This document shows positions 32,870 through 64,000 of a stretch of 64,000 bases of DNA, piece by piece (position 1 is the first letter of the stretch; every line of letters starts with the position of its first letter). Source of the DNA: Flectonema sp. DT1601 (taxonomy: Eukaryota); NCBI GenBank assembly GCA_964019425.1, contig OZ025785.1, positions 992,001 through 1,056,000 on the forward strand. The letters are read 5' to 3'. The translations under genes were made by a program, and so were the position numbers. The notes below the pieces were generated by a model that was given only the letters and a program-made list of their open reading frames with translations, had not been told where the DNA came from and ran no database searches.

Positions 32870-32969
32870 GTTAGATATTGTTGCGAGTTAAAGCGAAGGC
32901 TGTAAAGAAATGCAAAAATGATAGATTAATAAAAAAAAAAAAAATAAAAAAAAAACTGAATAAAAAAAA

Positions 32970-34774: not shown

Positions 34775-34806
<32 letters not shown>

Positions 34807-34810
<4 letters not shown>

Positions 34811-35208
34811 ATCTCCCTGCTATCCTCATATCCCCACAATAATATTATACCTTTTCATTTTCTCTTTCCTTTTCTGGTCTTTTTTTTTCTTTTTTTCCTT
34901 TTTCATACAACGTTTTTTATTTATATTTATATTTTATTTCTTTTTTTTTTTTTCATGTTTGATTATTTCCTCTTCATATTTTTTTTCTATTCTTTCTTTT
35001 TTTTTTTTTTTTTTTTCTCTACCTCTCTCTTAATTCTGTTCGTTTCTTTGAAACGAAAATTCATTTGAATATTATTCCTTGGTCAGCAACCATCATTGTC
35101 GCCCTTTGGGCCTGTTAAAAAAAAAAAAAAAATAAAAAGAAAGTTTACATCGGGAATAGGGCAGGAGCCAAAAGCTCCCAGTCCGTTACTTCCCACTTTA
35201 TCGAAATT
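34807..35208. repeat. Block Z; other copies at about 50371-50631, 55017-55423 and 56211-56402
   Basis: Shared core ...TTCTGTTCGTTTCTTTGAAACG...GGGAATAGGGCAGGAGCCAAAAGCTCCCAGTCCGTTACTTCCCACTTTATCGAAATT. Confidence 0.93.
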
Positions 35209-36734: not shown

Positions 36735-39700
36735 TTTCTATTTTCCGTTTTTTTTTTTCTTTAAAAAATAAATAAAAAGAATTTAAAATAAAAAAAAGAA
36801 TAAACAATGTTATCATTGTTTTTTATCGATCGACTATGTCGATCACTTTCTATTCTCCGTCCTGGTCAAGACGCTAAACTGATTGTTTTTTTTTTCAAAA
36901 TTAATAAAAAAGAATATTAAAAAAAATACAAAAAAAAAAAGAATAAACAATGTTATCATTGTTTTTTTTTATCGTTCGACTTTGTCGACTAATTTCTATT
37001 TTCCGTTTTTTTTCTTTAAAAAATAAATAAAAAGAATATAAAATAAAAAAAAAGAATAAACAATGTTATCATTGTTTTTTTTTATCGATCGACTATGTCG
37101 ATTACTTTCTATTTTCCGTCCTGGTCAAGACGCCAAACTGATTGTTTTTTTTTCAAAATTAATAAAAAAGAATATTAAAAAAAATACAAAAAAAAAAGAA
37201 TAAACAATGTTATCATTGTTTTTTTTTATCGTTCGACTTTGTCGACTAATTTCTATTTTCCGTTTTTTTTCTCTAAAAAATAAATAAAAAGAATTTAAAA
37301 TAAAAAAAAAGAATAAACAATGTTATCATTGTTTTTTTTTATCGATCGACTATGTCGATTACTTTCTATTTTCCGTCCTGGTCAAGACGCTAAACTGATT
37401 GTTTTTTTTTTTTTTCAAAATAAAAAAAAATATTAAAAAAAAAAAAAATAAAAAAAAAGGAATAAACAATGTTATCATTGTTTTTTTATCGATCGACTAT
37501 GTCGATTACTTTCTATTTTCCGTCCTGGTCAAGACGCTAAACTGATTGTTTTTTTTTTCAAAATAAAAAAAAATATTAAAAAAAAAAAATAAAAAAAAAG
37601 AATAAACAATGTTCTCATTGTTTTTTTTTATCGTTCGACTTTGTCGACTAATTTCTATTTTCCGTTTTTTTTCTCTAAAAAATAAATAAAAAGAATTTAA
37701 AATAAAAAAAAAGAATAAACAATGTTATCATTGTTTTTTTTATCGATCGACTATGTCGATTACTTCCTATTTTCCGTCCTGGTCAAGACGCTAAACTGAT
37801 TGTTTTTTTTTCAAAATTAATAAAAAAGAATATAAAAAAATAAAAAAAAGAATAAACAATGTTATCATTGTTTTTTTTTATCGTTCGACTTTGTCGACTA
37901 ATTTCTATTTTCCGTTTTTTTTTTTTTTTCTTTAAAATAAATAAAAAGAATTTAAAATAAAAAAAAAAAAGAATAAACAATGTTATCATTGTTTTTTTTT
38001 ATCGATCGACTATGTCGATTACTTTCTATTTTCCGTCCTGGTCAAGACGCTAAACTGATTGTTTTTTTTTCAAAATTAATAAAAAAGAATATAAAAAATA
38101 AAAAAAAAAAGAATAAACAATGTTATCATTGTTTTTTTTTTATCGTTCGACTTTGTTGACTAATTTCTATTTTCCGTTTTTTTTTCTTTAAAAAATAAAT
38201 AAAAAGAATTTAAAAAAAAAAAAAAAAAAAAAAGAATAAACAATGTTATCATTGTTTTTTTATCGATCGACTATGTCGATTACTTTCTATTTTCCGTCCT
38301 GGTCAAGACGCTAAACTGATTGTTTTTTTTTTTTTTTTTTTTCAAAATTAATAAAAAAGAATATAAAAAAAAAAAATAAAAAAAAGAATAAACAATGTTA
38401 TCATTGTTTTTTTATCGTTCGACTTTTCCGTTTTTTTCTCTTAAAAAATTAATAAAAAAGAATATAAAAAAAAAAAAATAAAAAAAAGAATAAACAAAGT
38501 TATCATTGTTTTTTTATCGTTCGACTTTGTCGACTAATTTCTATTTTCCGTTTTTTTTTTCTTAAAAAATAAATAAAAAGAATTTAAAAAAAAAAAAAAA
38601 AAAAAAAGAATAAACAATGTTATCATTGTTTTTTTATCGATCGACTATGTCGATTACTTTCTATTTTCCGTCCTGGTCAAGACGCTAAACTGATTGTTTT
38701 TTTTTTTTTTTTTTTTTCAAAATTAATAAAAAAGAATATAAAAAAAAAAAATAAAAAAAAGAATAAACAATGTTATCATTGTTTTTTTATCGATCGACTT
38801 TGTCGACTAATTTCTATTTACCGTCCTGGTCAAGACGCTAAACTGATTGTTTTTTCTAAATAAATAAAAAGAATAAAAAAAAAAAAAAAAAAAAAAAAGA
38901 TTAAACAATGTTATCATTGTTTTTTTTTATCGATCGACTATGTCGATTACTTTCTATTTTCCGTTTTTTTTTCTTTTCCTGTCTGACTGACTGTTTTTTC
39001 TTTAAAAAATAAATAAAAAGAATAAAAAAAAAAAAAAAAAAAAAAAGAATAAACAATGTTATCATTGTTTTTTTATCGATCGACTTTGTCGACTAATTTC
39101 TATTTACCGTCCTGGTCAAGACGCTAAACTGATTGTTTTTTCTAAATAAATAAAAAGAATAAAAAAAAAAAAAAAAAAAAAAAAAGATTAAACAATGTTA
39201 TCATTGTTTTTTTTTATCGATCGACTATGTCGATTACTTTCTATTTTCCGTTTTTTTTTCTTTTCCTGTCTGACTGACTGTTTTTTCTTTAAAAAATAAA
39301 TAAAAAGAATAAAAAAAAAAAAAAAAAAAAAAGAATAAACAATGTTATCATTGTTTTGTTATCGATCGACTTTGTCGACTAATTTCTATTTTCCGTCCTG
39401 GTCAAGACGCTAAACTGTTTGTTTTTTCTTTAAAAAATAAATAAAAAGAATAAAAAAAAAAAAAACAAAAAAAAAAAGAATAAACAATGTTATCATTGTT
39501 TTTTTATCGATCGACTATGTCGATCACTTTCTATTTTTCGTCCTGGTCAGGACGCTAAACTGATTGTTTTTTCTTTAAAAATAATAAAGAATTTCGATAA
39601 GAAGGATTTAAAAAAAAAAAAAAAAAAAAAGAATAAACAATGTTATCATTGTTTTTTTTTATCGATCGACTATGTCGATCACTTTCTATTTTCCGTCCTG

Positions 39701-40428
39701 GTCAAGACGCTAAACTGATTGTTTTTTTTCAAAATTAATAAAAAAGAATACAAAAAAAAATAAAAAAAAAAGAATAAACAATGTTATCATTGTTTTTTTT
39801 TATCGATCGTCTATGTCGATCACTTTCTATTTTCCGTCCTGGTCAAGACGCTAAACTGATTGTTTTTTTTTCAAAATTAATAAAAAAGAATATAAAAAAA
39901 AAATAAAAAAAAAAGAATAAACAATGTTATCATTGTTTTTTTTTATCGATCGTCTATGTCGATCACTTTCTATTTTCCGTCCTGGTCAAGACGCTAAACT
40001 GATTGTTTTTTTTCAAAATTAATAAAAAAGAATACAAAAAAAAATAAAAAAAAAAGAATAAACAATGTTATCATTGTTTTTTTTTATCGATCGTCTATGT
40101 CGATCACTTTCTATTTTCCGTCCTGGTCAAGACGCTAAACTGATTGTTTTTTTTCAAAATTAATAAAAAAGAATACAAAAAAAAATAAAAAAAAAAGAAT
40201 AAACAATGTTATCATTGTTTTTTTTTATCGATCGTCTATGTCGATCACTTTCTATTTTCCGTCCTGGTCAAGACGCTAAACTGATTGTTTTTTTTTCAAA
40301 ATTAATAAAAAAGAATATAAAAAAAAATAAAAAAAAAAGAATAAACAATGTTATCATTGTTTTTTTTTTTTATTGTTCGACTTTGTTGACTGGTCAAGAC
40401 GCTAAACTGATTGTTTTTTCTTTAAAAA
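36735..40428. repeat. AT-rich satellite array 1; monomers A (about 120 bp) and B (about 100 bp), often alternating
   Basis: A = GAATAAACAATGTTATCATTG(T)nATCGATCGACTATGTCGATYACTTTCTATTTTCCGTCCTGGTCAAGACGCTAAACTGATTG(T)nCAAAATTAAT(A)n... B has ATCGTTCGACTTTGTCGACTAAT and lacks the CCTGGTCAAGACGCTAAACTG segment. Confidence 0.97.
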
Positions 40429-40439
40429 GAAGATTTCAT

Positions 40440-43400
40440 TTGGAACTGAATGGAAGGACATCGACGTTTCTGCTGCAGAAAAACTTCAAACTTTCTCCGT
40501 CGAAACAGAAAACTCTTCAAAACCTGCCGACCAACTTGATAAACTACTCAAAACGGTTTATCAAATATGTAGCGGTTTCTTTGAAGAAACAAAGCGGAAT
40601 TTACCCCGCAAACAGAAATCAAGGGAAGAGGTCATCCTCGACCAAGAAAAACTTGAATGTCGTCTGGAAATGAAACAGCTAAGACAGGAGCTCCGCAAAT
40701 CTGGGCCTTCTATAGAGAACGCTGTCAAATGGAAAGAGGCAAGAACGAGAATGAAAAGGATTTTCCGAATGTATCGGAATTTAGAAAAGAAAAATCTATT
40801 CAAAAAATTACAAGATAAATTTCGTCAAAATCCGTTTTCTGCCATAAAAGAAGAACTCCAAAAAGAAGATCCTCAACCCCCCTCCCTTGATATTCCAGAG
40901 GAAAAAATAATTGAACATTTTAGAAACAATTATTGTGACAATGAAAAAAAAAAAACTGATTTCACCCATCCCTCTTTTTTACCTAAGTCTGACTACAAGA
41001 CAATGGATGATATCCAGTTCCCGAGCTTCGAACAGTTTGGTATTCTCTTATCAAAGAAAAAAAACAAATGTGCCCCTGGTCCCAATTGCATACCTTATGT
41101 TGTATGGAAAAAGGTCCCAACTTTTATGGAAGCACTTTACAAGGTATTAAAGAGAATTTTCGAACTCAAGGCCTATCCGGATAGTTGGGGCTTAGCATTT
41201 GTAACAATGCTCCCAAAGCCCAACTCCGATGGGAAAGACATCTCGAAAACGAGACCGATAGCTGTGGGCAACTGCGACGGGAAAATTTTTAATACGGTTA
41301 TTCAGGAAGCCGTCGCAAACCACACTCTTTCTAAATTTAATTTTCAAAAAGGCTTTAGGAAAGGTGTCTCTGGGTGTATCGAACATGCCACGATCACCTC
41401 AGAGATTTTTAAAGAAGTGAAAGCTCTCCGGAAAAACCTAACAATTGTCTGGGTGGATTTGGCAGATGCTTTCGGCTCAGTCAAACATCAATTAATTTTC
41501 TTTGCTTTAAAATATTTCGGAATTCACGAAAGAATAATCGGTTTCTATAAAAGGTATTATTCCTCCATGCGCGTCCAAATCAGAGTTGGAGAAGGCCTGA
41601 CGCCCACTATCCCTTTTGAAGTTGGTGTCTTTCAAGGCTGCGTTTCCTCCCCAACCCTTTTTAATTTGGTATTCCAACTACTGCTCTTTTCCTTAGCAGT
41701 TCATCAACAGGAAGCCTACGAGTTTAACAATAAATCCCTCCAACTATTAGTTGCAGCTTTTGCTGATGATTTACAACTTACCACGTCATCAAAGGCGGGG
41801 GCAAAATTGCTAATCAAGTCGCTCGAACAGTTTCTTTCCTGGTCTCGTGGTATGAAAGCGAAACCCCAGAAATGCATTGCCCACAGCTTTGTACAAGGGA
41901 AACCAGCTAACCCGGACCTGAAGATTAACAATGTTCCGATTACGAATCTCCAGGAAGCTGGAGAGTTCAAATACCTCGGGCGTTGGTTTGAGCCGAACGC
42001 CAAAGAACAGAAATTGCGAGAGCGCCTGACCACTTTTACCAGGAATTTTTTAAAAAAAGTCGACGCCATGCCACTATATGGGTCTCAGAAGGCTTGGTCT
42101 GTCCAACACTTGTTATTGTCAAGGTTAACATGGAGTTTAATGATCCATGACTTATCTCTCCCTTTTGCCAAAAAAATGGACAAAATTATTAAACCTTTTT
42201 TGAAGAAATGGTGGGGATTTGTCCGCTCTGCGAACACAGTCATCCTTTTTACCGGTTCAAAGAACACTGTTGGTCTCAGACACAAAAGAGTTGAGACGCT
42301 ATATAAACAAGCGCAATCAATTAAACTAGACATCCACAGATCCTCACAGGACTCTGACATGCACGGTGTCTACAATGTTATTATGGAGAAATCGTCCAAC
42401 TGGTCGAAAAAGTTTTCAGCTTCTGCTGAGTGGGAGCGCCTTATTAAGTTTTTTTCTTACCGTTCTCTTGCGAAGCAATCAGCTGGTCTTGGTCACCGAT
42501 TGCGCGATCTACGTACTACTCGCCCCGATCTCCTTAAGCGTTTTGAAGTGGAAGCCACAGATGAACTACTGAACTCTTTGAATAAATTACAAGTCCAAGG
42601 TCAGTGGAAGGAGTGGTCTAAATGTATGATAAACGATTTCACCTGGAATAAGGTACTTAGGGAGGGAAATCCTGCCTATATCTCATTTCAACTGAAAGCG
42701 GTTACAAACACCCTCCCCTCACAAGATAATTTAAAGAGGTGGAACATCACCAATGTGGACCAAAATTGTGTTTTGTGTGGCAAAGTGAATCCTACCCTCA
42801 GGCATGTCTTAACAGGCTGTCCTGTCTCTTTAACACAAGGGAGGTTCACGTGGCGTCACGACAGCGTTCTAAAACGCATTGTTATCTTCTTGGAAGAGTT
42901 GATAATAAAAGCCAACAAAAGAAAAGAAAACCTCCCGCCTCCCTCTCAAACTTTTTTAAAAACAGGGGAAAATAAACCCCTAGAAAGAATTTCTAAAGAG
43001 ACAGGCGAACTTTCACTAGCGAATGATTGGGTCATCCTCGACGATGTCGGTGATAACCGCCTAATTGTTCCTCTTGAAGTGTGCCATGTCTCGTCCTCTC
43101 TAAGACCAGACATTTTTATTTATTCTTTTTTTGCGAAAAGAGCACTGATTCTGGAGCTGACGTGTCCAAATGAAGATCGTTTCGAAACCTCTCATGTCTT
43201 AAAGGAAAAGAAATACCTAAAGCTAAGAGACTCGATCATCGCTAATGGCTTCGACTGTAACATTTTTACTATTGAAGTTGGCGTACGAGGAAACATCTGC
43301 ATGGACCAGCTGAACATCTGGACACGTCACATCGGTTCACCTTTAGCACCAACAAAAGCTTTATTTTGTGAATGCACCAGAATCGCCAGACAGTGCTCAT

Positions 43401-45468
43401 ATGTTCTGTTCCAGACGAGGAACCTCCCCACGTGGCATTCAAGACCACTAATGCGCAGCATTAAAGAAGAACCTGCCACTGCAAGTTTTATAAAAGATGG
43501 TAAAGAAATCTTCCCTGTGGAAGAAGTCAAAATCCACAAAGTAACAAAACTGAAAACGATCGAAAAGCTCACCATTGAAAGATCGTGGCTTGAGAAATGT
43601 TTTATCTGGCAAACTTGTTACGCATCGGCTCTTTCTATTCTACTTATTGCCAATGGTTCTTCCTCCCCGGCCCCTTCTGTTTTGTTAGATGAGGATGAGC
43701 TCACTGGACTCTCCTTGTCATTCTCTTCTATTTCTTCCATCTCTTTCCAGACTCCCCCACCTGAACTCATGTCAACGGGATCGCAAACACTTCCTGCTGA
43801 TTTCGCTATAGTGATAAGAACTCAATCTGACATGGGTTCTCAAACCCCCTTGTACAAAAAAAAAGAAGGAAAATTAAGGCTGAAACTTTCCTTGAAATGC
43901 CAGATTTTAGAAAACGAATTAGAGCAAATGAAAGAACGAATTTTTTATGTTCTATTTTTATTTTACTTTAATGCGATGTCAGCCTCCCTCGAGAAAGACA
44001 AGCAGTTACTAAATGGATTACCTGTTGAGATCAAAGCTACCAACCAGGATCCATCCTCACTTCCTCCTGCGCCCCCTGTTTTAATTATTGAAAAAGATAG
44101 AAAAGAATATGAACTTCTGGAAGGAGTAATTCAACGGTTAACAGCAGAACGCGATGAATCGAAGACTTCTCTTTCTGCACTAGTTCGACAATATGACTTA
44201 GTGGAAGATTACAGGAAACGTGAGCTCGCAAATCTGACTCAGAGAGCAGACCTATCGGAAATGGCGCTCTTTAATTACCATCAAAGGTTTGTTCTTCTGT
44301 CGAACGAATTGGAGACCAAATGTAATGAGGAAAGAGAAAGTAAAATAAGACTTTTCTATACTCAACAGGAGGTCGAGAGTTTGCGTGCCGCGCGTCCCCG
44401 TATGACCCACTTTAGTCAACAAGTTTCCCCCCGAACCCCCGTTCTGTATGAATCTGTTGCTATGATGAAGATAGCAAAGAACTACCTCTCGCTCTTTACA
44501 ACTACGAGTAGTCTTTTTACTCCTCTTATTAAACCCCTTATCCCTACCCTTAATTATATCACCCCTCTTTGTCCTCTAGCCTCAATTCCTCCGACAATGC
44601 CGCAGAGTGAAGCTCTCGACCGCACGCCGACCAAGATTTTACGACAAGAGAGTCACGTTATCTCCGTTAAAGAGAATACACCTATTGCGAGACAATGGTC
44701 CGAGGGTAGGATTGACTTACTCGAGAATTACTGTCGAGCAGTAGATGACTCTCTCGAAACAAACGAGAAAGCGGCAGAGCTCTCAGAACAACTTCTGGAT
44801 GCCCAACTTCGCCTCTCGGAGCTGAATCACCAACGGTGTACAACTCACGCAGAGCAGCTTGAGCAATCCATGATGTTAACGGGACTGGCGAGCGATTTAA
44901 ATGCTCAACTCGCCTTGGCACGGTCTCAAATTGCGGCCCTGAAGTTCCAATTAGCTTCATGGGCAGAAGGTTTGAGTCCGCCAGACACAGAAGAACATGA
45001 GGAAAATGAAACTCCGCCGAGAAAGTCTGAGCGTTCAACTCTGAAAAAACGAACCCCTCCATCAAGATATCGTTACAATCGAAGGAGATGTTCTGCTGAT
45101 GACGTTCACGGTGACTCCACCCCCTTGTAATTCTCTTTTTCCTTACTTTCACATCACTTTGTTTATTTAGTTTTTTAGCTTATTTATTATTTATTGTTCG
45201 TTTTTGTTTGTATTATTTTATCGATATGTTTATGTCCGTCAGATCATAACGTTAATCTGGTTAATTGTTAATTGTTAATTATAAATGGTCTAAACCCCAA
45301 TCCAAGTTCCCAAGGCTTGGCATAGATTTGAGTGACGCCTTACTGGCCTCCTCATCCTCTATGAGTGGTGAGGGGGCCAGCAATGGTTTTTTTTTTTTTT
45401 TTTCTCTTATTTCTTTTTTTCTTTTTCTTTTACTCTAATATGAAATATTTTTGAACAAAATGTGATTA

Positions 45469-45499
<31 letters not shown>
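40440..45499 (+). mobile_element. 5'-truncated non-LTR retrotransposon of RLE type (HERO-clade-like) with 3' UTR and poly(A)
   Basis: The frame is open from the satellite junction (GTEWKDID...) to the stop at 45130, followed by about 345 nt of UTR and an A-run at 45476-45499. No clear target-site duplication. Confidence 0.85.
40670..45130 (+). CDS. RT + CCHC zinc knuckle + restriction-like endonuclease polyprotein with about 560-aa C-terminal extension
   Basis: RT motifs APGPNCIPY, TRPIA, QKGF, WVDLADAFGSV, GVFQGCVSSP, FADD (41759-41770), KYLG. Also CVLC..LRHVLTGC..SLTQGRFTWRHDSVL (HERO-like) and RLE RPD..ILELTCP..KEKKY..IEVGVRG. Confidence 0.93.
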   Translation: MKQLRQELRKSGPSIENAVKWKEARTRMKRIFRMYRNLEKKNLFKKLQDKFRQNPFSAIKEELQKEDPQPPSLDIPEEKIIEHFRNNYCDNEKKKTDFTHPSFLPKSDYKTMDDIQFPSFEQFGILLSKKKNKCAPGPNCIPYVVWKKVPTFMEALYKVLKRIFELKAYPDSWGLAFVTMLPKPNSDGKDISKTRPIAVGNCDGKIFNTVIQEAVANHTLSKFNFQKGFRKGVSGCIEHATITSEIFKEVKALRKNLTIVWVDLADAFGSVKHQLIFFALKYFGIHERIIGFYKRYYSSMRVQIRVGEGLTPTIPFEVGVFQGCVSSPTLFNLVFQLLLFSLAVHQQEAYEFNNKSLQLLVAAFADDLQLTTSSKAGAKLLIKSLEQFLSWSRGMKAKPQKCIAHSFVQGKPANPDLKINNVPITNLQEAGEFKYLGRWFEPNAKEQKLRERLTTFTRNFLKKVDAMPLYGSQKAWSVQHLLLSRLTWSLMIHDLSLPFAKKMDKIIKPFLKKWWGFVRSANTVILFTGSKNTVGLRHKRVETLYKQAQSIKLDIHRSSQDSDMHGVYNVIMEKSSNWSKKFSASAEWERLIKFFSYRSLAKQSAGLGHRLRDLRTTRPDLLKRFEVEATDELLNSLNKLQVQGQWKEWSKCMINDFTWNKVLREGNPAYISFQLKAVTNTLPSQDNLKRWNITNVDQNCVLCGKVNPTLRHVLTGCPVSLTQGRFTWRHDSVLKRIVIFLEELIIKANKRKENLPPPSQTFLKTGENKPLERISKETGELSLANDWVILDDVGDNRLIVPLEVCHVSSSLRPDIFIYSFFAKRALILELTCPNEDRFETSHVLKEKKYLKLRDSIIANGFDCNIFTIEVGVRGNICMDQLNIWTRHIGSPLAPTKALFCECTRIARQCSYVLFQTRNLPTWHSRPLMRSIKEEPATASFIKDGKEIFPVEEVKIHKVTKLKTIEKLTIERSWLEKCFIWQTCYASALSILLIANGSSSPAPSVLLDEDELTGLSLSFSSISSISFQTPPPELMSTGSQTLPADFAIVIRTQSDMGSQTPLYKKKEGKLRLKLSLKCQILENELEQMKERIFYVLFLFYFNAMSASLEKDKQLLNGLPVEIKATNQDPSSLPPAPPVLIIEKDRKEYELLEGVIQRLTAERDESKTSLSALVRQYDLVEDYRKRELANLTQRADLSEMALFNYHQRFVLLSNELETKCNEERESKIRLFYTQQEVESLRAARPRMTHFSQQVSPRTPVLYESVAMMKIAKNYLSLFTTTSSLFTPLIKPLIPTLNYITPLCPLASIPPTMPQSEALDRTPTKILRQESHVISVKENTPIARQWSEGRIDLLENYCRAVDDSLETNEKAAELSEQLLDAQLRLSELNHQRCTTHAEQLEQSMMLTGLASDLNAQLALARSQIAALKFQLASWAEGLSPPDTEEHEENETPPRKSERSTLKKRTPPSRYRYNRRRCSADDVHGDSTPL

Positions 45500-45503
<4 letters not shown>

Positions 45504-45621
45504 AATGAATAATAAAAAAAAAAAAAAAAAAACATGCCTTGGGAATACAACCAAAGCCCCAATTAATCGGTCCTTTCTTTTTTCCTTCTTGTCAAGTGAT
45601 CGCTCCACTCGTCGATCACCA

Positions 45622-46051
45622 AAACCGATTGTATTTATATCTGTTCTTTTCTCAACGATCGGCTATACCGATCATTTTTTTTAAAAACAATTGTTTTCTT
45701 CTTCTCGACGATCAGATCCAATTGATCGACCTTTTCTTTTTTTTTCCTTTATTCCTTCCATCCCTCCCGCTCCCCTTATTTTAATAAAAACAAGATCAGC
45801 TCAGCTTGATCGTTAAACTTTTTTTTTTTTTATTTATTTATTTTTTTTTTTTTTATTTAAACTGATTGTATTTATATCTGGTTATTTTTCTCAACGATCG
45901 GCTATGCCGATCGACCTTTAAAATAATTGTCTTCTTCTTCTCGACGACCAGATCCAATTGATCGACCTTTTCTTTTTTTTTCCTTTATTCCTTCCATCCC
46001 TCCCGCTCCCCTTATTTTAATAAAAACAAGATCAGCTCAGCTTGATCGTTA
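45622..46051. repeat. Two diverged tandem copies (period about 237 bp) containing satellite-related motifs
   Basis: Both copies start AAACYGATTGTATTTATATCTG, contain GATCGGCTATRCCGATC and end GATCAGCTCAGCTTGATCGTTA. Confidence 0.9.
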
Positions 46052-46330
46052 TTTATTTATTTATTTATATTTTTTTTTTTGTTGGTCCTAGTCAAGACCT
46101 TAAACTGACTAATCGGTCTTAACTTTAACTAAGTGAATGAACCCTTTCCGTTTTCCTTTTCCCTTTATTACTCTCTATCTGGTCTGTTATGTCATAAATC
46201 TCATTTAATTTTATCATTCATTTTAATTTTCACTGTTTCCCATCTACATTTTATTTTCAAATAGTTCCGGTCTGTCTCTGATGATAAATAAAACTGATCA
46301 TGTTAACTCAATATTTTTTTTTATTATGTG

Positions 46331-46432
46331 CAAGAGATACCAACACGCAAGAGATACCAACGCACATACGAGATACCAGCACTTCCGAGATACCGACACA
46401 CAAGAGATACCAAGACACTTAAGATACCAGCA
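46331..46432. repeat. Minisatellite, six AGATACC cores at 17-19 bp spacing
   Basis: AGATACC at 46335, 46352, 46371, 46388, 46405 and 46422. Confidence 0.85.
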
Positions 46433-46699
46433 AGGACAGTGAGAGGTAGAATGAACTCTCCTCCTTGTGTCCGATCCTGATTATTTTTTGTTGAATTGGT
46501 AGTGTTACCTCAGTTTGCTACTCTCGTATCTGTGTTGTGTTAACTCATGTAAGTGATCTTAACTCCTGTTAAATAAAAAAAAAAATTTCAAAAAAAAAGA
46601 AATTAAAAAAGAAGAATTTTCAAATGAAGTTATATCAACCCCTGCCACCCATTATGATCAATTCCGCTTGTTTTTTTTTTTTTTTTTTTTCTTCTTTCT

Positions 46700-49248
46700 T
46701 TTCTTCAAATATAAAAAAAAATTAAAAAATATAAAAGATGAAACAATGTTATCATTGTTTTTTTTATCGATCGACTATGTCGATTACTTCCAGTTTTCCG
46801 TCCTGGTCAAGACGCTAAACTGATTGTTTTTTTTTTTTTTTTTAAAAAATTAATAAAAAGAATATAAAAAAAAAAAAAAAAAAAGAATAAACAATGTTAT
46901 CATTGTTTTTTTTTTATCGTTCGACTTTGTCGACTAATTTCTATTTTCCGTTTCTTTTCTTTAAATAATAAATAAAAAGAATTTAAAATAAAAAAAAAGA
47001 ATAAACAATGTTATCATTGTTTTTTTATCGATCGACTATGTCGATTACTTTCTATTTTCCGTCCTGGTCAAGACGCTAAACTGATTGTTTTTTTTTTCAA
47101 AATTAATAAAAAAGAATATAAAAAAAAAAAAAAAAAAAAAAGAATAAACAATGTTATCATTGTTTTTTTTTATTGTTCGACTTTGTTGACTAATTTCTAT
47201 TTTCCGTTTTTTTTCTTTAAAAAATAAATAAAAAGAATTTAAAATAAATAAAAAAGAATAAACAATGTTATCATTGTTTTTTTATCGATCGACTATGTCG
47301 ATCACTTTCTATTTTCCGTCCTGGTCAAGACGCTAAACTGATTGTTTTTTTTTCAAAATTAATAAAAAAGAATAAAAAAAAAAAAAAAAAAAAAGAATAA
47401 ACAATGTTATCATTGTTTTTTTTATCGTTCGACTTTGTTGACTAATTTCTATTTTCCGTTTTTTTTCTTTAAAAAATAAATAAAAAGAATTTAAAATAAA
47501 AAAAAAGAATAAACAATGTTATCATTGTTTTTTTATCGATCGACTATGTCGATCACTTTCTATTTTCCGTCCTGGTCAAGACGCTAAACTGATTGTTTTT
47601 TTTTCAAAATTAATAAAAAAGAATATAAAAAAAAAAAAAAAAAAAGAATAAACAATGTTATCATTGTTTTTTTTTTATCGTTCGACTTTGTCGACTAATT
47701 TCTATTTTCCGTTTCTTTTCTTTAAAGAATAAATAAAAAGAATTTAAAATAAAAAAAAAAATAAACAATGTTATCATTGTTTTTTTATCGATCGACTATG
47801 TCGATCACTTTCTATTTTCCGTCCTGGTCAAGACGCTAAACTGATTGTTTTTTTTTCTCAAAATTAATAAAAAAGAATATAAAAAAATACAAAAAAAAGA
47901 ATAAACAATGTTATCATTGTTTTTTTTATCGTTCGACTTTGTCGACTAATTTCTATTTTCCGTTTTTTTTTTCTTTAAAAAATAAATAAAAAGAATTTAA
48001 AATAAAAAAAAAAAAAAAGAATAAACAATGTTATCATTGTTTTTTTATCGATCGACTATGTCGATCACTTTCTATTTTCCGTCCTGGTCAAGACGCTAAA
48101 CTGATTGTTTTTTTTTCAAAATTAATAAAAAAGAATATAAAAAAAAAAAAAAAAAAAGGAAAAACAATGTTATCATTGTTTTTTTTATCGTTCGACTTTG
48201 TCGACTAATTTCTATTTTCCGTTTCTTTTCTTTAAAGAATAAATAAAAAGAATTTAAAATAAAAAAAAAGAATAAACAATGTTATCATTGTTTTTTTTTA
48301 TCGATCGACTATGTCGATCACTTTCTATTTTCCGTCCTGGTCAAGACGCTAAACTGATTGTTTTTTTTTTCAAAATTAATAAAAAAGAATATAAAAAAAT
48401 ACAAAAAAAAGAATAAACAATGTTATCATTGTTTTTTTTATCGTTCGACTTTGTCGACTAATTTCTATTTTCCGTTTTTTTTTTCTTTAAAAAATAAATA
48501 AAAAGAATTTAAAATAAAAAAAAAGAATAAACAATGTTATCATTGTTTTTTTATCGATCGACTATGTCGATCACTTTCTATTTTCCGTCCTGGTCAAGAC
48601 GCTAAACTGATTGTTTTTTTTTCAAAATTAATAAAAAAGAATATTAAAAAAAATACAAAAAAAAAAAGAATAAACAATGTTATCATTGTTTTTTTTTTAT
48701 CGTTCGACTTTGTCGACTAATTTCTATTTTCCGTTTTTTTTCTTTAAAAAATGAATAAAAAGAATTTAAAATAAAAAAAAAGAATAAACAATGTTATCAT
48801 TGTTTTTTTTTATCGATCGACTATGTCGATTACTTTCTATTTTCCGTCCTGGTCAAGACGCTAAACTGATTGTTTTTTTTTTCAAAATAAAAAAAAAATA
48901 TTAAAAAAAAAAAAATAAAAAAAAAGAATAAACAATGTTATCATTGTTTTTTTTTTATCGTTCGACTTTGTTGACTAATTTCTATTTTCCGTTTTTTTTC
49001 TTTAAAAAATAAATAAAAAGAATTTAAAAAAAAAAAAAAAAAAAAGAATAAACAATGTTATCATTGTTTTTTTTATCGATCGACTATGTCGATTACTTTC
49101 TATTTTCCGTCCTGGTCAAGACGCTAAACTGATTGTTTTTTTTTCAAAATTAATAAAAAAGAATATAAAAAAATACAAAAAAAAGAATAAACAATGTTAT
49201 CATTGTTTTTTTTATCGATCGACTATGTCGATTACTTTCTATTTTCCG
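46700..49248. repeat. Satellite array 2 (regular A-B dimers)
   Basis: Same monomers and orientation as array 1, with nearly strict A/B alternation. Confidence 0.97.
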
Positions 49249-50409
49249 TGCAAGGGAACAGTCCAAAGCATAAGTCCGAACAGCCCTAAGGCCAGTGAAC
49301 GCACTGATTGTTAGGTATTGTATTCCAGGGAAAGTTTGGTTTGTATACTTTATTTTTATTTTATTTTATTTAATTTGTTAAAAGAAAACAGGTAACTTTA
49401 CATGAGCATCGGCTCGAACGGCTCTGGCGAAGCGAGTGAACGAGTCTGATTGCTGAGTATTGTATTCTGTTTTCTTGTTCTTTTTTTAATTTATTTCAAA
49501 CAGGGCAACAGGGGGAAAGTTTGGTTTGTATCCCCTGGGTGTTTAGCGTCACCTGTTGAGGTGTAATGTATTCTGTTTACTTCTATCCCTTTTTTTTTTT
49601 TTTTTTTTTTTTTTATTTCAAACAGGACAGCAGGGGGAAAGTTTGTTTCGTACCCCCCGGGTGCTTAGCGTCACCCTCCATGCGATGCTTGCGCAGGGAG
49701 AGCCAAGGGTCGAGAACCCTGGAGATTACCTTTGTTTCTTTTTGTGACTGGATTGCAGTGGCGCAACCCATCACCCCACCTGTTGGTATCTTTTTATTTT
49801 TTTTATTTAAAGAAAAAAGCAGGCTAAGTCGCCTGAGCTGGCATCGCCAGAATATTTAACTTCACATGGCAATGTCAGCTCGTGAAGGGATCCAGTTGGA
49901 TCAAAGGTTTTCTCCCCCCCACTCTATTTATCGTCATTGGTGCGCACCTTCGAACAGGAAGGCCAACACTGACGGAATTTTTTACTTCTCTTCCCAGGGT
50001 TGAACCTTGGGAAAAAAACAAACAATAAACACAGTGTAGACAAACACCCGCCGGACATCTGCAGAGCAGCGATCGATGTCGATGTCTTCGTTGTCGAACT
50101 TCCTGGCGTTTATGTTTTTGTTTTTAACAACAACACAACACCAACTAACAGGTTTGTCTCATTGCCCGTTCTTTCTTGTTTCCCTTTGCCGCCGGAAGAA
50201 CGAAGGTCGACGGAGGTCCGAAGCATTGCTTGCGATGATGTTCCGGTATGTGTTGCGTCTCTGTTGACGCTAAACTGATTGTTTTTTTTTCAAAATTAAT
50301 AAAAAAGAATATAAAAAAATACAAAAAAAAGAATAAACAATGTTATCATTGTTTTTTTTTATCGTTCGACTTTTTCATGTTTGATTATTTCCTCTTCATT
50401 TTTTTTTTC

Positions 50410-50440
<31 letters not shown>

Positions 50441-50632
50441 CCTCTGCCTCTCTCTTAATTCTGTTCGTTTCTTTGAAACGAAAATTCATTTGAATATTAT
50501 TCCTTGGTCAGCAACCATCATTGTCGCCCTTTGGGCCTGTTAAAAAAAATAAAAATAAAAAGAAAGTTTACATCGGGAATAGGGCAGGAGCCAAAAGCTC
50601 CCAGTCCGTTACTTCCCACTTTATCGAAATTC

Positions 50633-53600
50633 TTAGAAACTAGGAAACTAGGTTAACACTTAGTTAAAATTAAGACCGGTTAGTCAGTTTAAGGTCTTGT
50701 CTAGGACCAACATTCTTGTTTAACTTCAGTTATATTCATTTTACTTTTTATTGTTTCCCATCTGTTTTTATTTTCTATTAGTTCTGGTCAGAAACCCCTG
50801 GGCAGCAAGAAGGAAAACAGTTTAGTACTTCTGGGTGTTTGGCATCACCCCCCATAGTGAGCAAGTACAACAGGTAGCATTGGTAGTCTGTTGATCCTGA
50901 GTGATCCCAGCTACAGTTTTGTTTTTCTTTCTTTTTTTTAGAAGAAGATCAGGACATCCAAGCACTGCTGGATAGTTGCTGAATGCAGGGCCTGCCTGTG
51001 GCATTATAATAACAGGCTAAGTCATTTGTAGTTCATAGTTTACCTTTGATTTTATAACTTCACACAGGGTACTATGAACGATGAGAGATCCAGTGGGATC
51101 ACTCAGGGTCTAGTAGAGACCACCAATGTTGTGCGTTGATAGGCAAGGTGACCAACCTTGACATTCTTTCTTTTCTCTCCTGTTGTGACAAACACAAAAT
51201 ACACACACAGCTTACAGTGTGTTCTTTGTGTATGTTTTCTTCAGGTGTGAGTAGTTTTTTTGTTCTTGCTCTTCAGGGAGGGCCTTAGCCAAAAGCTAAC
51301 AGTCCAAATCTCACCTGGAAATTCAACTCATTAAAAGGTTAAAAAAAAAAAAAAAAAAAAAAAAAGATTAATCAATGTTATCATTGTTTTTTAATCGATC
51401 GACTATGTCGATCACTTTCAATTTTCCGTCCTGGTCAGGACGCTAAACTGATTGTTTTTTCTTTAAAAATAAATAAAAAGAATAAAAAAAAAAAAAAAAA
51501 AGGAATAAACAATGTTATCATTGTTTTTATTTTATCGATCGACTATGTCGATTACTTTCTATTTTCCGTCCTGGTCAAGACGCTAAACTGATTGTTTTTT
51601 CTTTAAAAAATAATAAGAAGGATTTAAAAAAAAAAAAAAAAAAAAAAAAAGAATAAACAATGTTATCATTGTTTTTTTATCGATCGACTATGTCGATCAC
51701 TTTCTATTTTTCGTCCTGGTCAGGACGCTAAACTGATTGTTTTTTCTTTAAAAATAATAAAGAATTTCGATAAGAAGGATTTAAAAAAAAAAAAAAAAAA
51801 AAAGAATAAACAATGTTATCATTGTTTTTTTTTATCGATCGACTATGTCGATCACTTTCTATTTTCCGTCCTGGTCAAGACGCTAAACTGATTGTTTTTT
51901 TTCAAAATTAATAAAAAAGAATACAAAAAAAAATAAAAAAAAAAGAATAAACAATGTTATCATTGTTTTTTTTTATCGATCGTCTATGTCGATCACTTTC
52001 TATTTTCCGTCCTGGTCAAGACGCTAAACTGATTGTTTTTTTTCAAAATTAATAAAAAAGAATACAAAAAAAAATAAAAAAAAAAGAATAAACAATGTTA
52101 TCATTGTTTTTTTTTATCGATCGTCTATGTCGATCACTTTCTATTTTCCGTCCTGGTCAAGACGCTAAACTGATTGTTTTTTTTTCAAAATTAATAAAAA
52201 AGAATATAAAAAAAAATAAAAAAAAAAGAATAAACAATGTTATCATTGTTTTTTTTTTTTATTGTTCGACTTTGTTGACTGGTCAAGACGCTAAACTGAT
52301 TGTTTTTTCTTTAAAAAGAAGATTTCATATTAGAAACTAGGAAACTAGGTTAACACTTAGTTAAAATTAAGACCGGTTAGTCAGTTTAAGGTCTTGTCTA
52401 GGACCAACATTCTTGTTTAACTTCAGTTATATTCATTTTACTTTTTATTGTTTCCCATCTGTTTTTATTTTCTATTAGTTCTGGTCAGAAACCCCTGGGC
52501 AGCAAGAAGGAAAACAGTTTAGTACTTCTGGGTGTTTGGCATCACCCCCCATAGTGAGCAAGTACAACAGGTAGCATTGGTAGTCTGTTGATCCTGAGTG
52601 ATCCCAGCTACAGTTTTGTTTTTCTTTCTTTTTTTTAGAAGAAGATCAGGACATCCAAGCACTGCTGGATAGTTGCTGAATGCAGGGCCTGCCTGTGGCA
52701 TTATAATAACAGGCTAAGTCATTTGTAGTTCATAGTTTACCTTTGATTTTATAACTTCACACAGGGTACTATGAACGATGAGAGATCCAGTGGGATCACT
52801 CAGGGTCTAGTAGAGACCACCAATGTTGTGCGTTGATAGGCAAGGTGACCAACCTTGACATTCTTTCTTTTCTCTCCTGTTGTGACAAACACAAAATACA
52901 CACACAGCTTACAGTGTGTTCTTTGTGTATGTTTTCTTCAGGTGTGAGTAGTTTTTTTGTTCTTGCTCTTCAGGGAGGGCCTTAGCCAAAAGCTAACAGT
53001 CCAAATCTCACCTGGAAATTCAACTCAGTCCTTGTCAGTTTTGGCATCAAACTTGTAATGGTTTAATCATTACAGGTTATTTACTGAAATATTTGTTCTA
53101 AAAGTTGCTAAGTATTTCTCACTTAGAAATTTTTTATTTTTTTATTTTCAGCTTAATTAGCTACAAATTGTTTCTACTAAGTGTTTCTCGCTTAGTTTTT
53201 TTTTTTTGCTTTTCAGCTCCTTAAAAGCTGCTAAGTGTTTCTGCTAAGTGTTTCTCACTTAGAATTTTATTTTTATGTTCGTTTTCTATCCCTTCTCCTA
53301 TCCCTTTTGTTCAAAATAAGCGGGAGGAAATTCTCTCATTCACGCTAAGATGCACTCTGAACTTTGATTTTTTGATCTGAGTGTGAGGGAATGACCTGTT
53401 AGTGCATTGGGCATAGGCTGGGCTGCAGTTTAGATGTCTTAGGTGTTAATAGGGGGTTCCTCTTAGCATTTTTCTTTGTTCCCACCTTATGATTTTCTTG
53501 AAGAAAAAAAATAGAAGTCATAATGGTGCTTCCCTCTGGAAGGGTTGTAAGCCATGGTGTCCAACTAAATTAAAGGACAAGTCTGGGATAATCCCTGCCA

Positions 53601-54552
53601 GAGGGGCGAGTATTCTACCATGGTTGAAATACTCTGGCAACTGATCTTCAATTTTATGTTGTTTGTTAGCTGCTGGTGTATCTCGATCATGTGTTGATAC
53701 TTGCATTTTTTTTTATTTGTAATCTTTTACTACAATAACTCTTGCAATTATCTTTTCTTTTTTATTCTCTATCTGTTCTGGTCTGTTTCTTCATTTTTTT
53801 TACATTAATAATTACATTTTGTTCAAAAAGAAAAAAAAAGAAAAAGATTTCATATTAGAAACTAGGAAACTAGGTTAACACTTAGTTTAAATTAAGACCG
53901 GTTAGTCAGTTTAAGGTCTTGTCTAGGACCAACATTCTTGTTTAACTTCAGTTATATTCATTTTACTTTTTATTGTTTCCCATCTGTTTTTATTTTCTAT
54001 TAGTTCTGGTCAGAAACCCCTGGGCAGCAAGAAGGAAAACAGTTTAGTACTTCTGGGTGTTTGGCATCACCCCCCATAGTGAGCAAGTACAACAGGTAGC
54101 ATTGGTAGTCTGTTGATCCTGAGTGATCCCAGCTACAGTTTTGTTTTTCTTTCTTTTTTTTAGAAGAAGATCAGGACATCCAAGCACTGCTGGATAGTTG
54201 CTGAATGCAGGGCCTGCCTGTGGCATTATAATAACAGGCTAAGTCATTTGTAGTTCATAGTTTACCTTTGATTTTATAACTTCACACAGGGTACTATGAA
54301 CGATGAGAGATCCAGTGGGATCACTCAGGGTCTAGTAGAGACCACCAATGTTGTGCGTTGATAGGCAAGGTGACCAACCTTGACATTCTTTCTTTTCTCT
54401 CCTGTTGTGACAAACACAAAATACACACACAGCTTACAGTGTGTTCTTTGTGTATGTTTTCTTCAGGTGTGAGTAGTTTTTTTGTTCTTGCTCTTCAGGG
54501 AGGGCCTTAGCCAAAAGCTAACAGTCCAAATCTCACCTGGAAATTCAACTCA
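50633..54552. repeat. Block X (about 700 bp): near-identical direct copies at 50633-51329, 52329-53027 and 53854-54552; partial copy at about 36392-36733
   Basis: The identical short ORF MPQAGPAF... is reported four times in the ORF track and the nucleotide sequences match by eye. Copies 2 and 3 are 1525 bp apart. Confidence 0.93.
53794..53934 (-). mobile_element. About 140-nt A-tailed retro-insertion sharing its 3' end with the HERO-like element
   Basis: Minus strand ends TCTAATATGAAATC...TTTTTGAACAAAATGTAATTATTAATGT(A)8, matching 45434-45499. Absent from the homologous site at about 36385-36395. Confidence 0.65.
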
Positions 54553-54842
54553 TTAAAAGGTTAAAAAAAAAAAAAAAAAAAAAAAAAGATTAATCAATGT
54601 TATCATTGTTTTTTAATCGATCGACTATGTCGATCACTTTCAATTTTCCGTCCTGGTCAGGACGCTAAACTGATTGTTTTTTCTTTAAAAATAAATGAAA
54701 AGAATAAAAAAAAAAAAAAAAAAAAAAAAGAATAAACAATGTTATCATTTTTTTTTTATCGATCGACTATGTCGATTACTTTCTATTTTCCGTCTTGGTC
54801 AAGACGCTAAACTGATTGTTTTTTCTTTAAAATAATTAAAAG

Positions 54843-54875
<33 letters not shown>

Positions 54876-54988
54876 ATAAACAATGTTATCATTGTTTTTT
54901 TTCTATCGATCGACTATGTCGATTAATTTCTATTTTCCGTCCTGATCGAGACGCTAAACTGATTGTTTCCTTTTTTTAAATAATAAAT

Positions 54989-55020
<32 letters not shown>

Positions 55021-55444
55021 ATCTCCCTGCTATCCTCATATCCCCACAATAATATTATACCTTTTCATTTTCTCTTTCCTTTTCTGGTCTTTTTTTTTCT
55101 TTTTTTCCTTTTTCATACAACGTTTTTTTATTTATATTTATATTTTTTTTTTTTTTTTTTTTTTTCATGTTTGATTATTTCCTCTTCATATTTTTTTTTT
55201 TCTATTCTTTCTTTTTTTTTTTTTTTTTTCTCTGCCTCTCTCTCAATTCTGTTCGTTTCTTTGAAACGAAAATTCATTTGAATATTATTCCTTGGTCAGC
55301 AACCATCATTGTCGCCCTTTGGGCCTGTTAAAAAAAAAAAAAAAAAATAAAAAGAAAGTTTACATCGGGAATAGGGCAGGAGCCAAAAGCTCCCAGTCCG
55401 TTACTTCCCACTTTATCGAAATTTTTTAAAAAATAAATAAAAAG

Positions 55445-55484
<40 letters not shown>

Positions 55485-55731
55485 AATGTTATCATTTTTT
55501 TTTTATCGATCGACTATGTCGATCACTTTCAATTTTCCGTCCTGGTCAGGACGCTAAACTGATTGTTTTTTCTTTAAAAATAAATGAAAAGAATAAAAAA
55601 AAAAAAAAAAAAAAAAAAGAATAAACAATGTTATCATTTTTTTTTTATCGATCGACTATGTCGATTACTTTCTATTTTCCGTCTTGGTCAAGACGCTAAA
55701 CTGATTGTTTTTTCTTTAAAATAATTAAAAG

Positions 55732-55764
<33 letters not shown>

Positions 55765-57950
55765 ATAAACAATGTTATCATTGTTTTTTTATCGTTCGAC
55801 TTTTCCGTTTTTTTCTCTTAAAAAATAAATAAAAAGAATTTAAAAAAAAAAAAAAAAAAAAAAGAATAAACAATGTTATCATTGTTTTTTTATCGATCGA
55901 CTTTGTCGACTAATTTCTATTTACCGTCCTGGTCAAGACGCTAAACTGATTGTTTTTTCTAAATAAATAAAAAGAATAAAAAAAAAAAAAAAAAAAAAAA
56001 AAGATTAAACAATGTTATCATTGTTTTTTTTTATCGATCGACTATGTCGATTACTTTCTATTTTCCGTTTTTTTTTCTTTTCCTGTCTGACTGACTGTTT
56101 TTTCTTTAAAAAATAAATAAAAAGAATAAAAAAAAAAAAACAAAAAAAAAAGAATAAACAATGTTATCATTGTTTTTTTATCGATCGACTATGTCGATTA
56201 CTTTCTATTTCTCTGCCTCTCTCTTAATTCTGTTCGTTTCTTTGAAACGAAAATTCATTTGAATATTATTCCTTGGTCAGCAACCATCATTGTCGCCCTT
56301 TGGGCCTGTTAAAAAAAAATAAAAAATAAAAAGAAAGTTTACATCGGGAATAGGGCAGGAGCCAAAAGCTCCCAGTCCGTTACTTCCCACTTTATCGAAA
56401 TTCATCACTTTCTATTTCTCGTCCTGGTCAGGACGCTAAACTGATTGTTTTTTCTTTAAAAATAAATAAAAAGAATAAAAAAAAAAAAAAAAAAGGAATA
56501 AACAATGTTATCATTGTTTTTATTTTATCGATCGACTATGTCGATTACTTTCTATTTTCCGTCCTGGTCAAGACGCTAAACTGATTGTTTTTTCTTTAAA
56601 AAATAATAAGAAGGATTTAAAAAAAAAAAAAAAAAAAAAAAAAGAATAAACAATGTTATCATTGTTTTTTTATCGATCGACTATGTCGATCACTTTCTAT
56701 TTTTCGTCCTGGTCAGGACGCTAAACTGATTGTTTTTTCTTTAAAAATAATAAAAAGGATTTAAAAAAAAAAAAAAAAAAAAAGAATAAACAATGTTATC
56801 ATTGTTTTTTTTTATCGATCGACTATGTCGATCACTTTCTATTTTCCGTCCTGGTCAAGACGCTAAACTGATTGTTTTTTTTCAAAATTAATAAAAAAGA
56901 ATACAAAAAAAAATAAAAAAAAAAGAATAAACAATGTTATCATTGTTTTTTTTTATCGATCGTCTATGTCGATCACTTTCTATTTTCCGTCCTGGTCAAG
57001 ACGCTAAACTGATTGTTTTTTTTTCAAAATTAATAAAAAAGAATATAAAAAAAAAATAAAAAAAAAAGAATGAACAATGTTATCATTGTTTTTTTTTATC
57101 GATCGTCTATGTCGATCACTTTCTATTTTCCGTCCTGGTCAAGACGCTAAACTGATTGTTTTTTTCAAAATTAATAAAAAAGAATACAAAAAAAAATAAA
57201 AAAAAAAGAATAAACAATGTTATCATTGTTTTTTTTTATCGATCGTCTATGTCGATCACTTTCTATTTTCCGTCCTGGTCAAGACGCTAAACTGATTGTT
57301 TTTTTTTCAAAATTAATAAAAAAGAATATAAAAAAAAAATAAAAAAAAAAGAATAAACAATGTTATCATTGTTTTTTTTTATCGATCGTCTATGTCGATC
57401 ACTTTCTATTTTCCGTCCTGGTCAAGACGCTAAACTGATTGTTTTTTTTCAAAATTAATAAAAAAGAATACAAAAAAAAATAAAAAAAAAAGAATAAACA
57501 ATGTTATCATTGTTTTTTTTTATCGATCGTCTATGTCGATCACTTTCTATTTTCCGTCCTGGTCAAGACGCTAAACTGATTGTTTTTTTTTCAAAATTAA
57601 TAAAAAAGAATATAAAAAAAAAATAAAAAAAAAAAAATAAACAATGTTATCATTGTTTTTTTTTTTTATTGTTCGACTTTGTTGACTAATTTCTATTTTC
57701 CGTTTTTTTTTCTTTTTAAAAAGTAAATAAAAAGAATTTAAAAAAAAAAAAAAAAAAAAAGAATAAACAATGTTATCATTGTTTTTTTTTATCGATCGAC
57801 TATGTCGATTACTTTCTATTTTCCGTCCTGGTCAAGACGCTAAACTGATTGTTTTTTTTTCAAAATTAATAAAAAAGAATATAAAAAAAAACAAAAACAA
57901 AAAGAATAAACAATGTTATCATTGTTTTTTTTTTATCGTTCGACTTTGTC

Positions 57951-63954: not shown

Positions 63955-64000
<46 letters not shown>

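What the first reader, a model, noticed from the sequence alone, without database searches (positions are those of the whole stretch)
45434..53934. Chain of homology linking the satellite to a retroelement 3' end: a possibly RT-built array
Seen: (i) the last about 40 nt before the HERO-like poly(A) (TCTAATATGAAAT..TTTTTGAACAAAATGTGATTATTAATTT-An, 45434-45499) recur on the minus strand at 53794-53859 with their own A-tail. (ii) That same about 140-nt insert begins with GTTGGTCCTAGACAAGACCTTAAACTGACT, a relative of satellite H3, and its 55-nt head also occurs on the plus strand at 46081-46135. (iii) The insert is missing from the homologous site near 36390. (iv) Every satellite monomer ends in a variable A-tract and has the same polarity as the RT ORF. 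Inference: a short H3-bearing RNA is mobilised by the HERO-like RT, and the satellite may derive from, or be extended by, repeated reverse transcription of such hairpin-plus-A-tail units.
Basis: partly seen in the sequence, partly recalled or inferred. Interest (0 to 1): 0.75.

Follow-up and report, generated by a model that had tools for sequence, protein, structure and literature searches.

The report
LINE carrying a pseudoknot satellite tail
The satellite here lies inside the 5.5-kb tail of a jumping gene that likely copies blocks of it around the genome, and most of its repeat units carry a small RNA knot, shared with many viruses, that is predicted but not shown to block RNA decay.

Summary
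The homologies are real; the mechanism needs revision. The A-tract at 45476 is not the retroelement's end. 40440-50632 (10,193 nt: truncated RT ORF, 236-nt repeats, 'head', satellite, 400-nt module B) is one insertion: its flanks match an intact site elsewhere in the window with one base lost. Module B ends at the same place in six junctions, and 34576-35211 (satellite plus B) interrupts a gag-like gene that is whole in other copies. So the satellite lies within the LINE's 3' region and likely moves in blocks by target-primed reverse transcription. Monomer-by-monomer synthesis is not supported: A-tract lengths are inherited in exact duplicated blocks. The 139-nt insert is an inverted, low-copy head+tail piece, absent in three public runs. 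H3/head is a 28-nt H-type pseudoknot with covariation in both stems across viruses and bacteria, close to the Xrn1-resistant coremin motif but failing its loop rule. Both clean short inserts begin within 6 nt of it, a weak hint that nuclease-trimmed RNAs were the templates. New variant of a known kind.

The parts
40440..50632 (+). One 10,193-nt insertion: 5'-truncated RLE-type LINE with its whole 3' region
   Evidence: Left flank identical for 486 nt to the sequence ending 52328, right flank identical for 698 nt to that starting 52330; one base lost
40440..45130 (+). RT ORF, N-terminus missing: RT, CCHC finger, PD..D/E-type endonuclease motif, then about 550 aa extension
   Evidence: Pfam RVT_1 E 4.9e-26, zf-RVT 6e-07; best solved relatives R2 proteins; motifs and two N-terminal fingers in P0044
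45434..45499 (+). 'Tail' and internal A-tract (not the element end)
   Evidence: X1 contig bridges it into 45543-45724; homology to insert
45622..46080 (+). Two 236-nt hairpin-rich repeats, weakly related to satellite H2
   Evidence: TRF; alignment to satellite reached by 1 of 300 shuffles; fold z -3.5
46084..46111 (+). 'Head' pseudoknot, 4-bp stem 1 and 6 of 6 Watson-Crick pairs in stem 2
   Evidence: 26 of 26 nt identical to L002
46136..46700 (+). Spacer; its start is homologous to the D/A junction
   Evidence: Score 98 versus shuffle maximum 52; head-to-satellite distance kept in an X2 contig
46711..49249 (+). Satellite array inside the LINE, alternating 140-nt (with H3) and 113-nt (without H3) monomers
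49250..50265 (+). Module E, sits in place of 9 nt of an H3 loop; distantly related to A
50375..50632 (+). Module B (shortened copy), the LINE's 3' terminus with a stem-loop about 30 nt before the end
34576..35211 (+). 636-nt 5'-truncated copy (starts in H3, one more monomer, full module B) interrupting a gag-like gene
   Evidence: Gene end is contiguous in P0095, P0101, P0103, P0106; 0-2 nt duplication
55017..55423 (+). Module B, full copy preceded by satellite
   Evidence: 612 identities, 7 mismatches to 34576-35208
56211..56403 (+). Module B, short copy within satellite
53797..53935 (-). The 139-nt insert: 69-nt head piece joined to a 70-nt tail piece with a short A run
   Evidence: partial copies at 50633-50713 and 52316-52410 come from block duplication (exact blocks of 808, 698, 664 nt)
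53031..54552 (+). D+A unit (about 1.35 kb without the insert), tandem or circular; ends in the same stem-loop as B
   Evidence: Joint 54545->53040 in X1, X2, X4; two compensatory pairs
36735..40439 (+). Satellite array upstream of the LINE; its right part is the target flank
51336..57950 (+). Satellite arrays punctuated by A, D, insert and B modules

Best explanation
The satellite lies inside the 5.5-kb 3' region of an RLE-type LINE that ends in module B, and the LINE's reverse transcriptase likely spreads blocks of it as 5'-truncated copies. Shown: 40440-50632 and 34576-35211 are clean insertions ending at the same B terminus. Inferred: the enzyme recognises the terminal stem-loop, primes on nicked DNA without a fixed target, and often lands in older copies, which builds the mosaic; D+A is a non-coding partner with the same stem-loop. 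DNA-level slippage and block duplication then expand and copy the arrays. The 139-nt insert is likely a rare product primed at the internal A-tract, with the head added by a template jump or taken from a sister subfamily. H3/head is a real RNA pseudoknot (shown by covariation elsewhere) that is predicted to stall 5'-3' exonucleases; this is untested.
For: Flanks of the 10.2-kb block joined give 1387 identities, 0 mismatches to 51640-53027; gaps (285) equal two extra monomers plus the one lost base. B ends within 2 nt of one place at 35209-35211, 50632, 55423, 56403 and, at codon resolution, in P0036 and P0041 where it is inverted on an RT copy; its left ends vary. The gag-like gene is contiguous in 4 near-identical and 3 related proteins of 9 examined. 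Order RT -> 236 repeat -> head -> satellite recurs in runs X1, X2, X4. A and B ends share a 9-pair stem-loop with 2 compensatory pairs; the motif occurs 7 times, 0 expected; shared 3' stem-loops mark stringent LINE/SINE pairs (PMC3747384). Exact blocks of 486 nt at 11.9 kb and 432 nt at 17.4 kb include the A-tract lengths.
Against: No whole genome was held, so only one long copy was read. B was never laid on public runs, and in the 10.2-kb copy the satellite-to-B joint (50374) differs from that at 34806 and 55017, and E intervenes. P0036 has B's left part followed by RT, which a simple 5'-truncated insertion does not explain. The insert has head before tail, the reverse of the element, and ends at the A-tract, not at B. 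Arrays at 36735-40439 and 56405-57950 have no B end in view. No RNA run was listed. The X2 head-to-satellite link rests on two records of equal length and depth in two answers.
Confidence: 0.7

Rival explanations
1. The satellite is the LINE's preferred target, not part of it; the LINE ends near 46700 and B belongs to another small element that landed at 50632 separately.
For: RT fragments follow satellite sequence in the window and in P0039, P0047; some HERO families target microsatellites (PMC4640811); three joints fall at the H3 hairpin (34576, 49249, 50266); E and an altered joint lie between satellite and B.
Against: It needs B to end by chance one base from the RT's 5' joint on the same target; B-ended copies sit in a gag-like gene and in RT ORFs, sites with no visible common sequence; 34576-35211 carries satellite with B into non-satellite DNA.
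Confidence: 0.13
2. The mosaic is made at DNA level only (templated repair insertions, gene conversion, unequal exchange), or partly by mis-assembly; no RNA step is needed.
For: Exact block duplications are common; near-identical donors for 34576-35211 lie 20 kb away; joints have 0-3 nt of microhomology where both parents are known.
Against: Repair insertions would not share one precise end in six joints; A and B keep a covarying terminal stem-loop; an RT-to-A joint also occurs in an X2 contig, so such joints are not peculiar to this assembly.
Confidence: 0.1
3. One reading: a short hairpin-plus-A-tail RNA is reverse transcribed again and again, each round adding one monomer with its own tail.
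For: All 76 monomers share the RT's polarity; A-tracts range from 6 to 26; the 139-nt insert does end in an A run and starts at an H3 relative.
Against: 19 of 68 monomers have exact twins; monomers with the same substitutions differ by 0.6 A on average versus 6.9 for other pairs; 65 of 68 carry a fixed linker after the tract; long and short monomers alternate as a 253-nt higher-order unit; no run showed head joined to tail.
Confidence: 0.07

Closest known systems
RLE-encoding non-LTR retrotransposons (R2 group; HERO clade by resemblance)
   Same: N-terminal fingers, RT, CCHC finger, PD..D/E motif; 5'-truncated copies without target duplication; apparently no fixed target (HERO is described as mostly non-specific, PMC4640811).
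   Different: About 550-aa C-terminal extension; 5.5-kb 3' region holding a satellite; no poly(A) at the inferred end; clade not tested against named HERO sequences.
Satellites arising from retroelement 3' UTR repeats (PisTR-A from Ogre, HeT-A-derived satellite, cetacean common satellite from L1; PMC9659126)
   Same: Tandem repeat inside a retroelement's 3' non-coding region that also forms arrays.
   Different: Here an RLE-type LINE, with clean truncated insertions that carry the monomers, and a conserved RNA pseudoknot in most monomers.
Coremin motif xrRNA-C and its Watson-Crick variant xrRNA-WCC (PMC6546385, PMC10520033, PMC10321173)
   Same: GUC/GAC hairpin, C at loop position 1, YUAAAC spacer; the viral relatives match 17 of the 20 coremin letters; position just after stop codons; loop-spacer pseudoknot as in xrRNA-WCC.
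   Different: 8-nt loop with U, not G, at position 2; 5-6 bp second stem; no conserved second hairpin; found in phages, bacteria and here in a LINE; nuclease resistance untested.
Stringent LINE/SINE pairs with a shared 3' stem-loop (PMC3747384)
   Same: D+A and B share a terminal stem-loop with compensatory changes.
   Different: D+A is about 1.35 kb, tandem or circular, and its promoter is unknown.

Membership tests
RLE-type non-LTR retrotransposon | RT domain followed by CCHC finger and PD..D/E endonuclease motif | tested here: met
RLE-type non-LTR retrotransposon | Fixed 3' end, variable 5' truncation, little or no target duplication | tested here: met
   Six B-end joints, two clean insertions; few copies seen
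HERO clade | Groups with named HERO elements in an RT tree | tested here: inconclusive
   Groups with unnamed P0003-P0008 (support 0.94), apart from Caenorhabditis NeSL-like proteins; no named HERO among 26 sequences; P0010, P0020, P0022 left out
HERO clade | Non-specific or microsatellite target | tested here: inconclusive
   Six flanks show no common sequence by eye; too few
Poly(A)-ended SINE family (the 140-nt insert) | Dispersed copies with own tails and target duplications | tested here: not met
   One event plus duplicated parts in the window; no duplication; head only in native context in 3 runs. Low-depth contigs drop rare copies and the tool skipped 53821-53851, so absence is not proven
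xrRNA-C (coremin) | 3-5 bp first hairpin, Y at loop position 1, conserved spacer | tested here: met
   Stem covaries 85, 85, 86 of 87; C in 99 of 99 when left free
xrRNA-C (coremin) | Loop YG(N)nAD | tested here: not met
   Position 2 is U in 90 and C in 9 of 99, U in all window copies aligned
xrRNA-C (coremin) | Second hairpin after the spacer | tested here: not met
   35 of 90 viral loci at or below -3 kcal/mol, mean -2.8 versus -2.4 shuffled; window copies -0.2 to -1.7
xrRNA-WCC | Watson-Crick loop-spacer pseudoknot | tested here: met
xrRNA-WCC | Tetraloop with G at loop position 1 | tested here: not met
   Octaloop with C
Any xrRNA | Stalls a 5'-3' exoribonuclease | not testable with these tools
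   Needs an enzyme assay

The most novel reading that the evidence does not exclude
This LINE carries a run of exonuclease-resistant pseudoknots in its 3' region. Xrn stalls at them and leaves stable 3' RNAs that still bear the RT-binding end, so the retrotransposon makes its own short non-autonomous templates, as flaviviruses make sfRNA, and the satellite is an amplified array of xrRNAs whose positions preset where copies are truncated.
Probability: 0.25. Interest if true: 0.82.

Novelty: new variant of a known kind. Interest (0 to 1): 0.62.

Why it matters
It gives a readable case of a satellite that lives in, and is moved by, a LINE, with filled and empty sites side by side. It also places a virus-type RNA pseudoknot in a eukaryotic retrotransposon and satellite, a context I did not meet in the papers or scan notes searched. 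If the knot resists Xrn, 5' truncation of these copies would be set by RNA decay and not only by a failing enzyme, which one enzyme assay and one genome-wide count of 5' joints can test.

Tried and rejected
No whole genome was held. Rfam gave no family for the satellite, head or motif (window 33000-58000; 20 loci each). No RNA holder was listed; this says nothing on expression. Depths were not used as copy numbers. The host could not be placed: the closest named relatives of one gene are 30-34% identical. The Atlas gave only coiled-coil look-alikes for the C-terminal extension, below its recognition threshold. H3 as a mere DNA palindrome was rejected because the second stem covaries. Pair 6:28 shows no covariation. 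Pistol and HDV-like ribozymes (features recalled, no call) were rejected by eye: no conserved sequence follows the knot. A 14-bit model hit at 63443 was treated as chance. An inverted homology between spacer and D+A was not significant (3 of 200 shuffles). The automatic joint script found both parents for only a minority of joints. Scan look-ups by sequence and place found nothing.
Full report
Setting. The window is from an unidentified eukaryote; no whole genome was held.

Observation. The tail and head homologies are real and beyond chance. The insert is 53797-53935 on the minus strand and replaces one base without a target duplication. The empty site is seen at 36357-36410 and in runs X1, X2 and X4 (three studies, one of which may be the source; X3 does not cover it). 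In those runs the 69-nt head lies only in a context like 46040-46180, and D+A closes on itself as a tandem or circular unit. Point (iv) holds for polarity (76 of 76) but not for independent tails: 24 of 68 monomers have a pure run of 18 or more A, 65 of 68 have a fixed linker after it, 19 of 68 have exact twins, and monomers with the same substitutions differ by 0.6 A versus 6.9 for other pairs.

The RT. It has RVT_1, zf-RVT and a PD..D/E-type motif; R2 proteins are the best solved relatives. Two clusters of 235 and 47 members hold its copies. P0044 shows that 176 N-terminal residues with two fingers are missing here. Of 30 listed members (of 282), 11 have 13 foreign ends of 11 aa or more; 9 ends map to satellite, A, B or D (7 by tblastn, 2 by eye), one is read-through, one probably a frameshift, two are unplaced. 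A tree of 26 RT domains sets it apart from Caenorhabditis NeSL-like proteins but held no named HERO.

Where the element ends. One X1 contig runs through the 45476 A-tract into the 236-nt repeat. The head follows that repeat in X1, X2 and X4, and a 748-nt X2 contig appears to hold both head and first satellite hairpin at the window's spacing (same length and depth in two answers, so inferred to be one record). The decisive result is in the window: the DNA left of 40440 is identical for 486 nt to that ending at 52328, and the DNA right of 50632 is identical for 698 nt to that starting at 52330. So 40440-50632 is one insertion with one base lost, and it ends at the right end of module B. That end recurs at 35209-35211, 55423 and 56403 and, inverted, in P0036 and P0041, while left ends vary. 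34576-35211 is a second clean case: it starts inside H3, carries one more monomer and all of B, and interrupts a gag-like gene whose end is contiguous in four near-identical and three related proteins of nine examined. A and B share a terminal stem-loop with two compensatory pairs, as stringent LINE/SINE pairs do (PMC3747384, passages).

How the arrays grow. Both routes are seen. Truncated LINE copies carry blocks of monomers (inferred from the clean insertions). DNA-level copying is shown by exact blocks of 260-808 nt at 0.1-17 kb, tract lengths included, and by a 253-nt higher-order unit. The LINE's own target was such a duplicated block. Satellites derived from retroelement 3' regions are known (PMC9659126, passages).

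The insert. It joins a head piece to a tail piece in the reverse of their order in the element and differs from both window copies, so it came from another copy. A template jump after priming at the internal A-tract (template jumping by R2-type enzymes is recalled, not read in a call) or a sister subfamily with another order would explain it; I could not decide.

H3 is an RNA pseudoknot. A pattern covering head and H3 found 2 loci in JGI metagenomes. L002 is identical to 46085-46110 over 26 nt, 8 nt after the stop of the last ORF of a picorna-like contig (RdRP_1 E 7.8e-08; capsid hit below cut-off). A looser pattern gave 120 listed and about 180 estimated viral stretches (about 1.5 expected per 1e11 nt) and 98 bacterial loci (8.7 expected). 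With the loop left free, 70 of 98 distinct viral hits pair all three free loop bases with the downstream bases (14.6 in shuffles, 0 of 10,000). On 87 aligned rows 90% of cells pair and 108 change on both sides versus 34 shuffled. With stem 1 left free its inner pairs form in 85, 85 and 86 of 87 (42, 43, 78 shuffled). These shuffles ignore relatedness. 35 of 69 viral hits lie 4-16 nt after a stop codon versus 4 of 66 on the other strand; in bacteria 23 of 90 versus 10 of 86. Single cases lie just 5' of a cripavirus IRES, at the start of a GIR1 match and 5' of a DUF2800 RNA. The head has 6 of 6 Watson-Crick pairs in stem 2, the insert copy 5 of 6, the common satellite copy 3 plus 3 G-U, so the satellite form may be weakened.

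Comparison. The closest described RNAs are coremin and xrRNA-WCC (PMC10520033, parts 1-4 of 6; PMC10321173, passages and section 14; PMC6546385, passages). The motif meets the hairpin, first-loop-base and spacer features and fails the loop rule and the second hairpin, so it is a relative, not a member. Xrn1 halts one base before the coremin hairpin. The insert starts 4 nt before the knot and the 636-nt copy 3-5 nt into it. For the latter, falling within 6 nt of the knot's start has a chance of about 9% in a 141-nt monomer; this is post hoc, and other 5' joints lie in the ORF or within B. It is a hint only.

Novelty. Not met in print in my searches: exact strings (0 papers) and topic searches read as listings only. 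Figures and supplements of the coremin papers were not seen and might list such a variant. PMC4640811 and PMC13580325 were read as passages. Earlier notes of this scan report the same knot in phages (152 findings), seen after my own tests; none holds it with a retrotransposon and satellite.

Verdict. Observation partly confirmed, interpretation partly supported. Best reading (0.7): an RLE-type LINE with a satellite in a very long 3' region, spread by truncated, nested insertion plus DNA-level duplication. New variant of a known kind; interest 0.62.

Noticed in passing
window 58151-64000: A second retroelement-like ORF on +: it opens with what looks like the end of an endonuclease domain (recalled resemblance to CRE elements), then proline-rich repeats, a UCH peptidase and two RNase H1 N-terminal domains, a 630-nt 3' UTR and a true poly(A) at 63955-64000; its 5' side is lost in the 200-N gap next to the satellite.
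   Followed up: partly
window 43481-45130: C-terminal extension of about 550 aa after the endonuclease motif; about 50-57% identical between the two RT subfamilies while the core is near-identical; only coiled-coil look-alikes.
   Followed up: partly
window 45343-45381: Strong hairpin followed by a U run in the RT 3' UTR (z -5.8 for 45340-45476).
   Followed up: no
window 52316-54552: Candidate 5'-truncated D+A dimer inserted in a satellite monomer with 2-3 nt lost; the neighbours are of different monomer types, so not proven.
   Followed up: partly
window 39590-39600 and 51763-51773: An 11-nt inverted copy of the B terminus inside a satellite monomer.
   Followed up: no
window 49249/50266, 34576, 40388: Several joints and the deletion that makes the short monomer fall at the H3 hairpin; possible hot spot, not tested statistically.
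   Followed up: partly
L054 1501-1599; L148 301-470; L032; L311: The pseudoknot occurs in two or three close copies in some viral and bacterial contigs (38-nt spacing in L054).
   Followed up: no
L005, L008, L048, L075 and others: The pseudoknot directly precedes GIR1-like sequence in several small contigs; only L008 was matched by Rfam (E 7.4e-06, below the gathering score).
   Followed up: partly
L244-L323 titles; Bacterial hits are rich in Omnitrophota, Desulfobacterales and Clostridia, with no title naming a gammaproteobacterium among the 80 listed; a link to RNase J hosts is a guess.
   Followed up: no
window 31120-32887 and 33980-36250, 8815-12127: A MULE/SWIM transposase fragment and gag-like and recombinase-like fragments of other mobile elements (the latter by eye).
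   Followed up: partly
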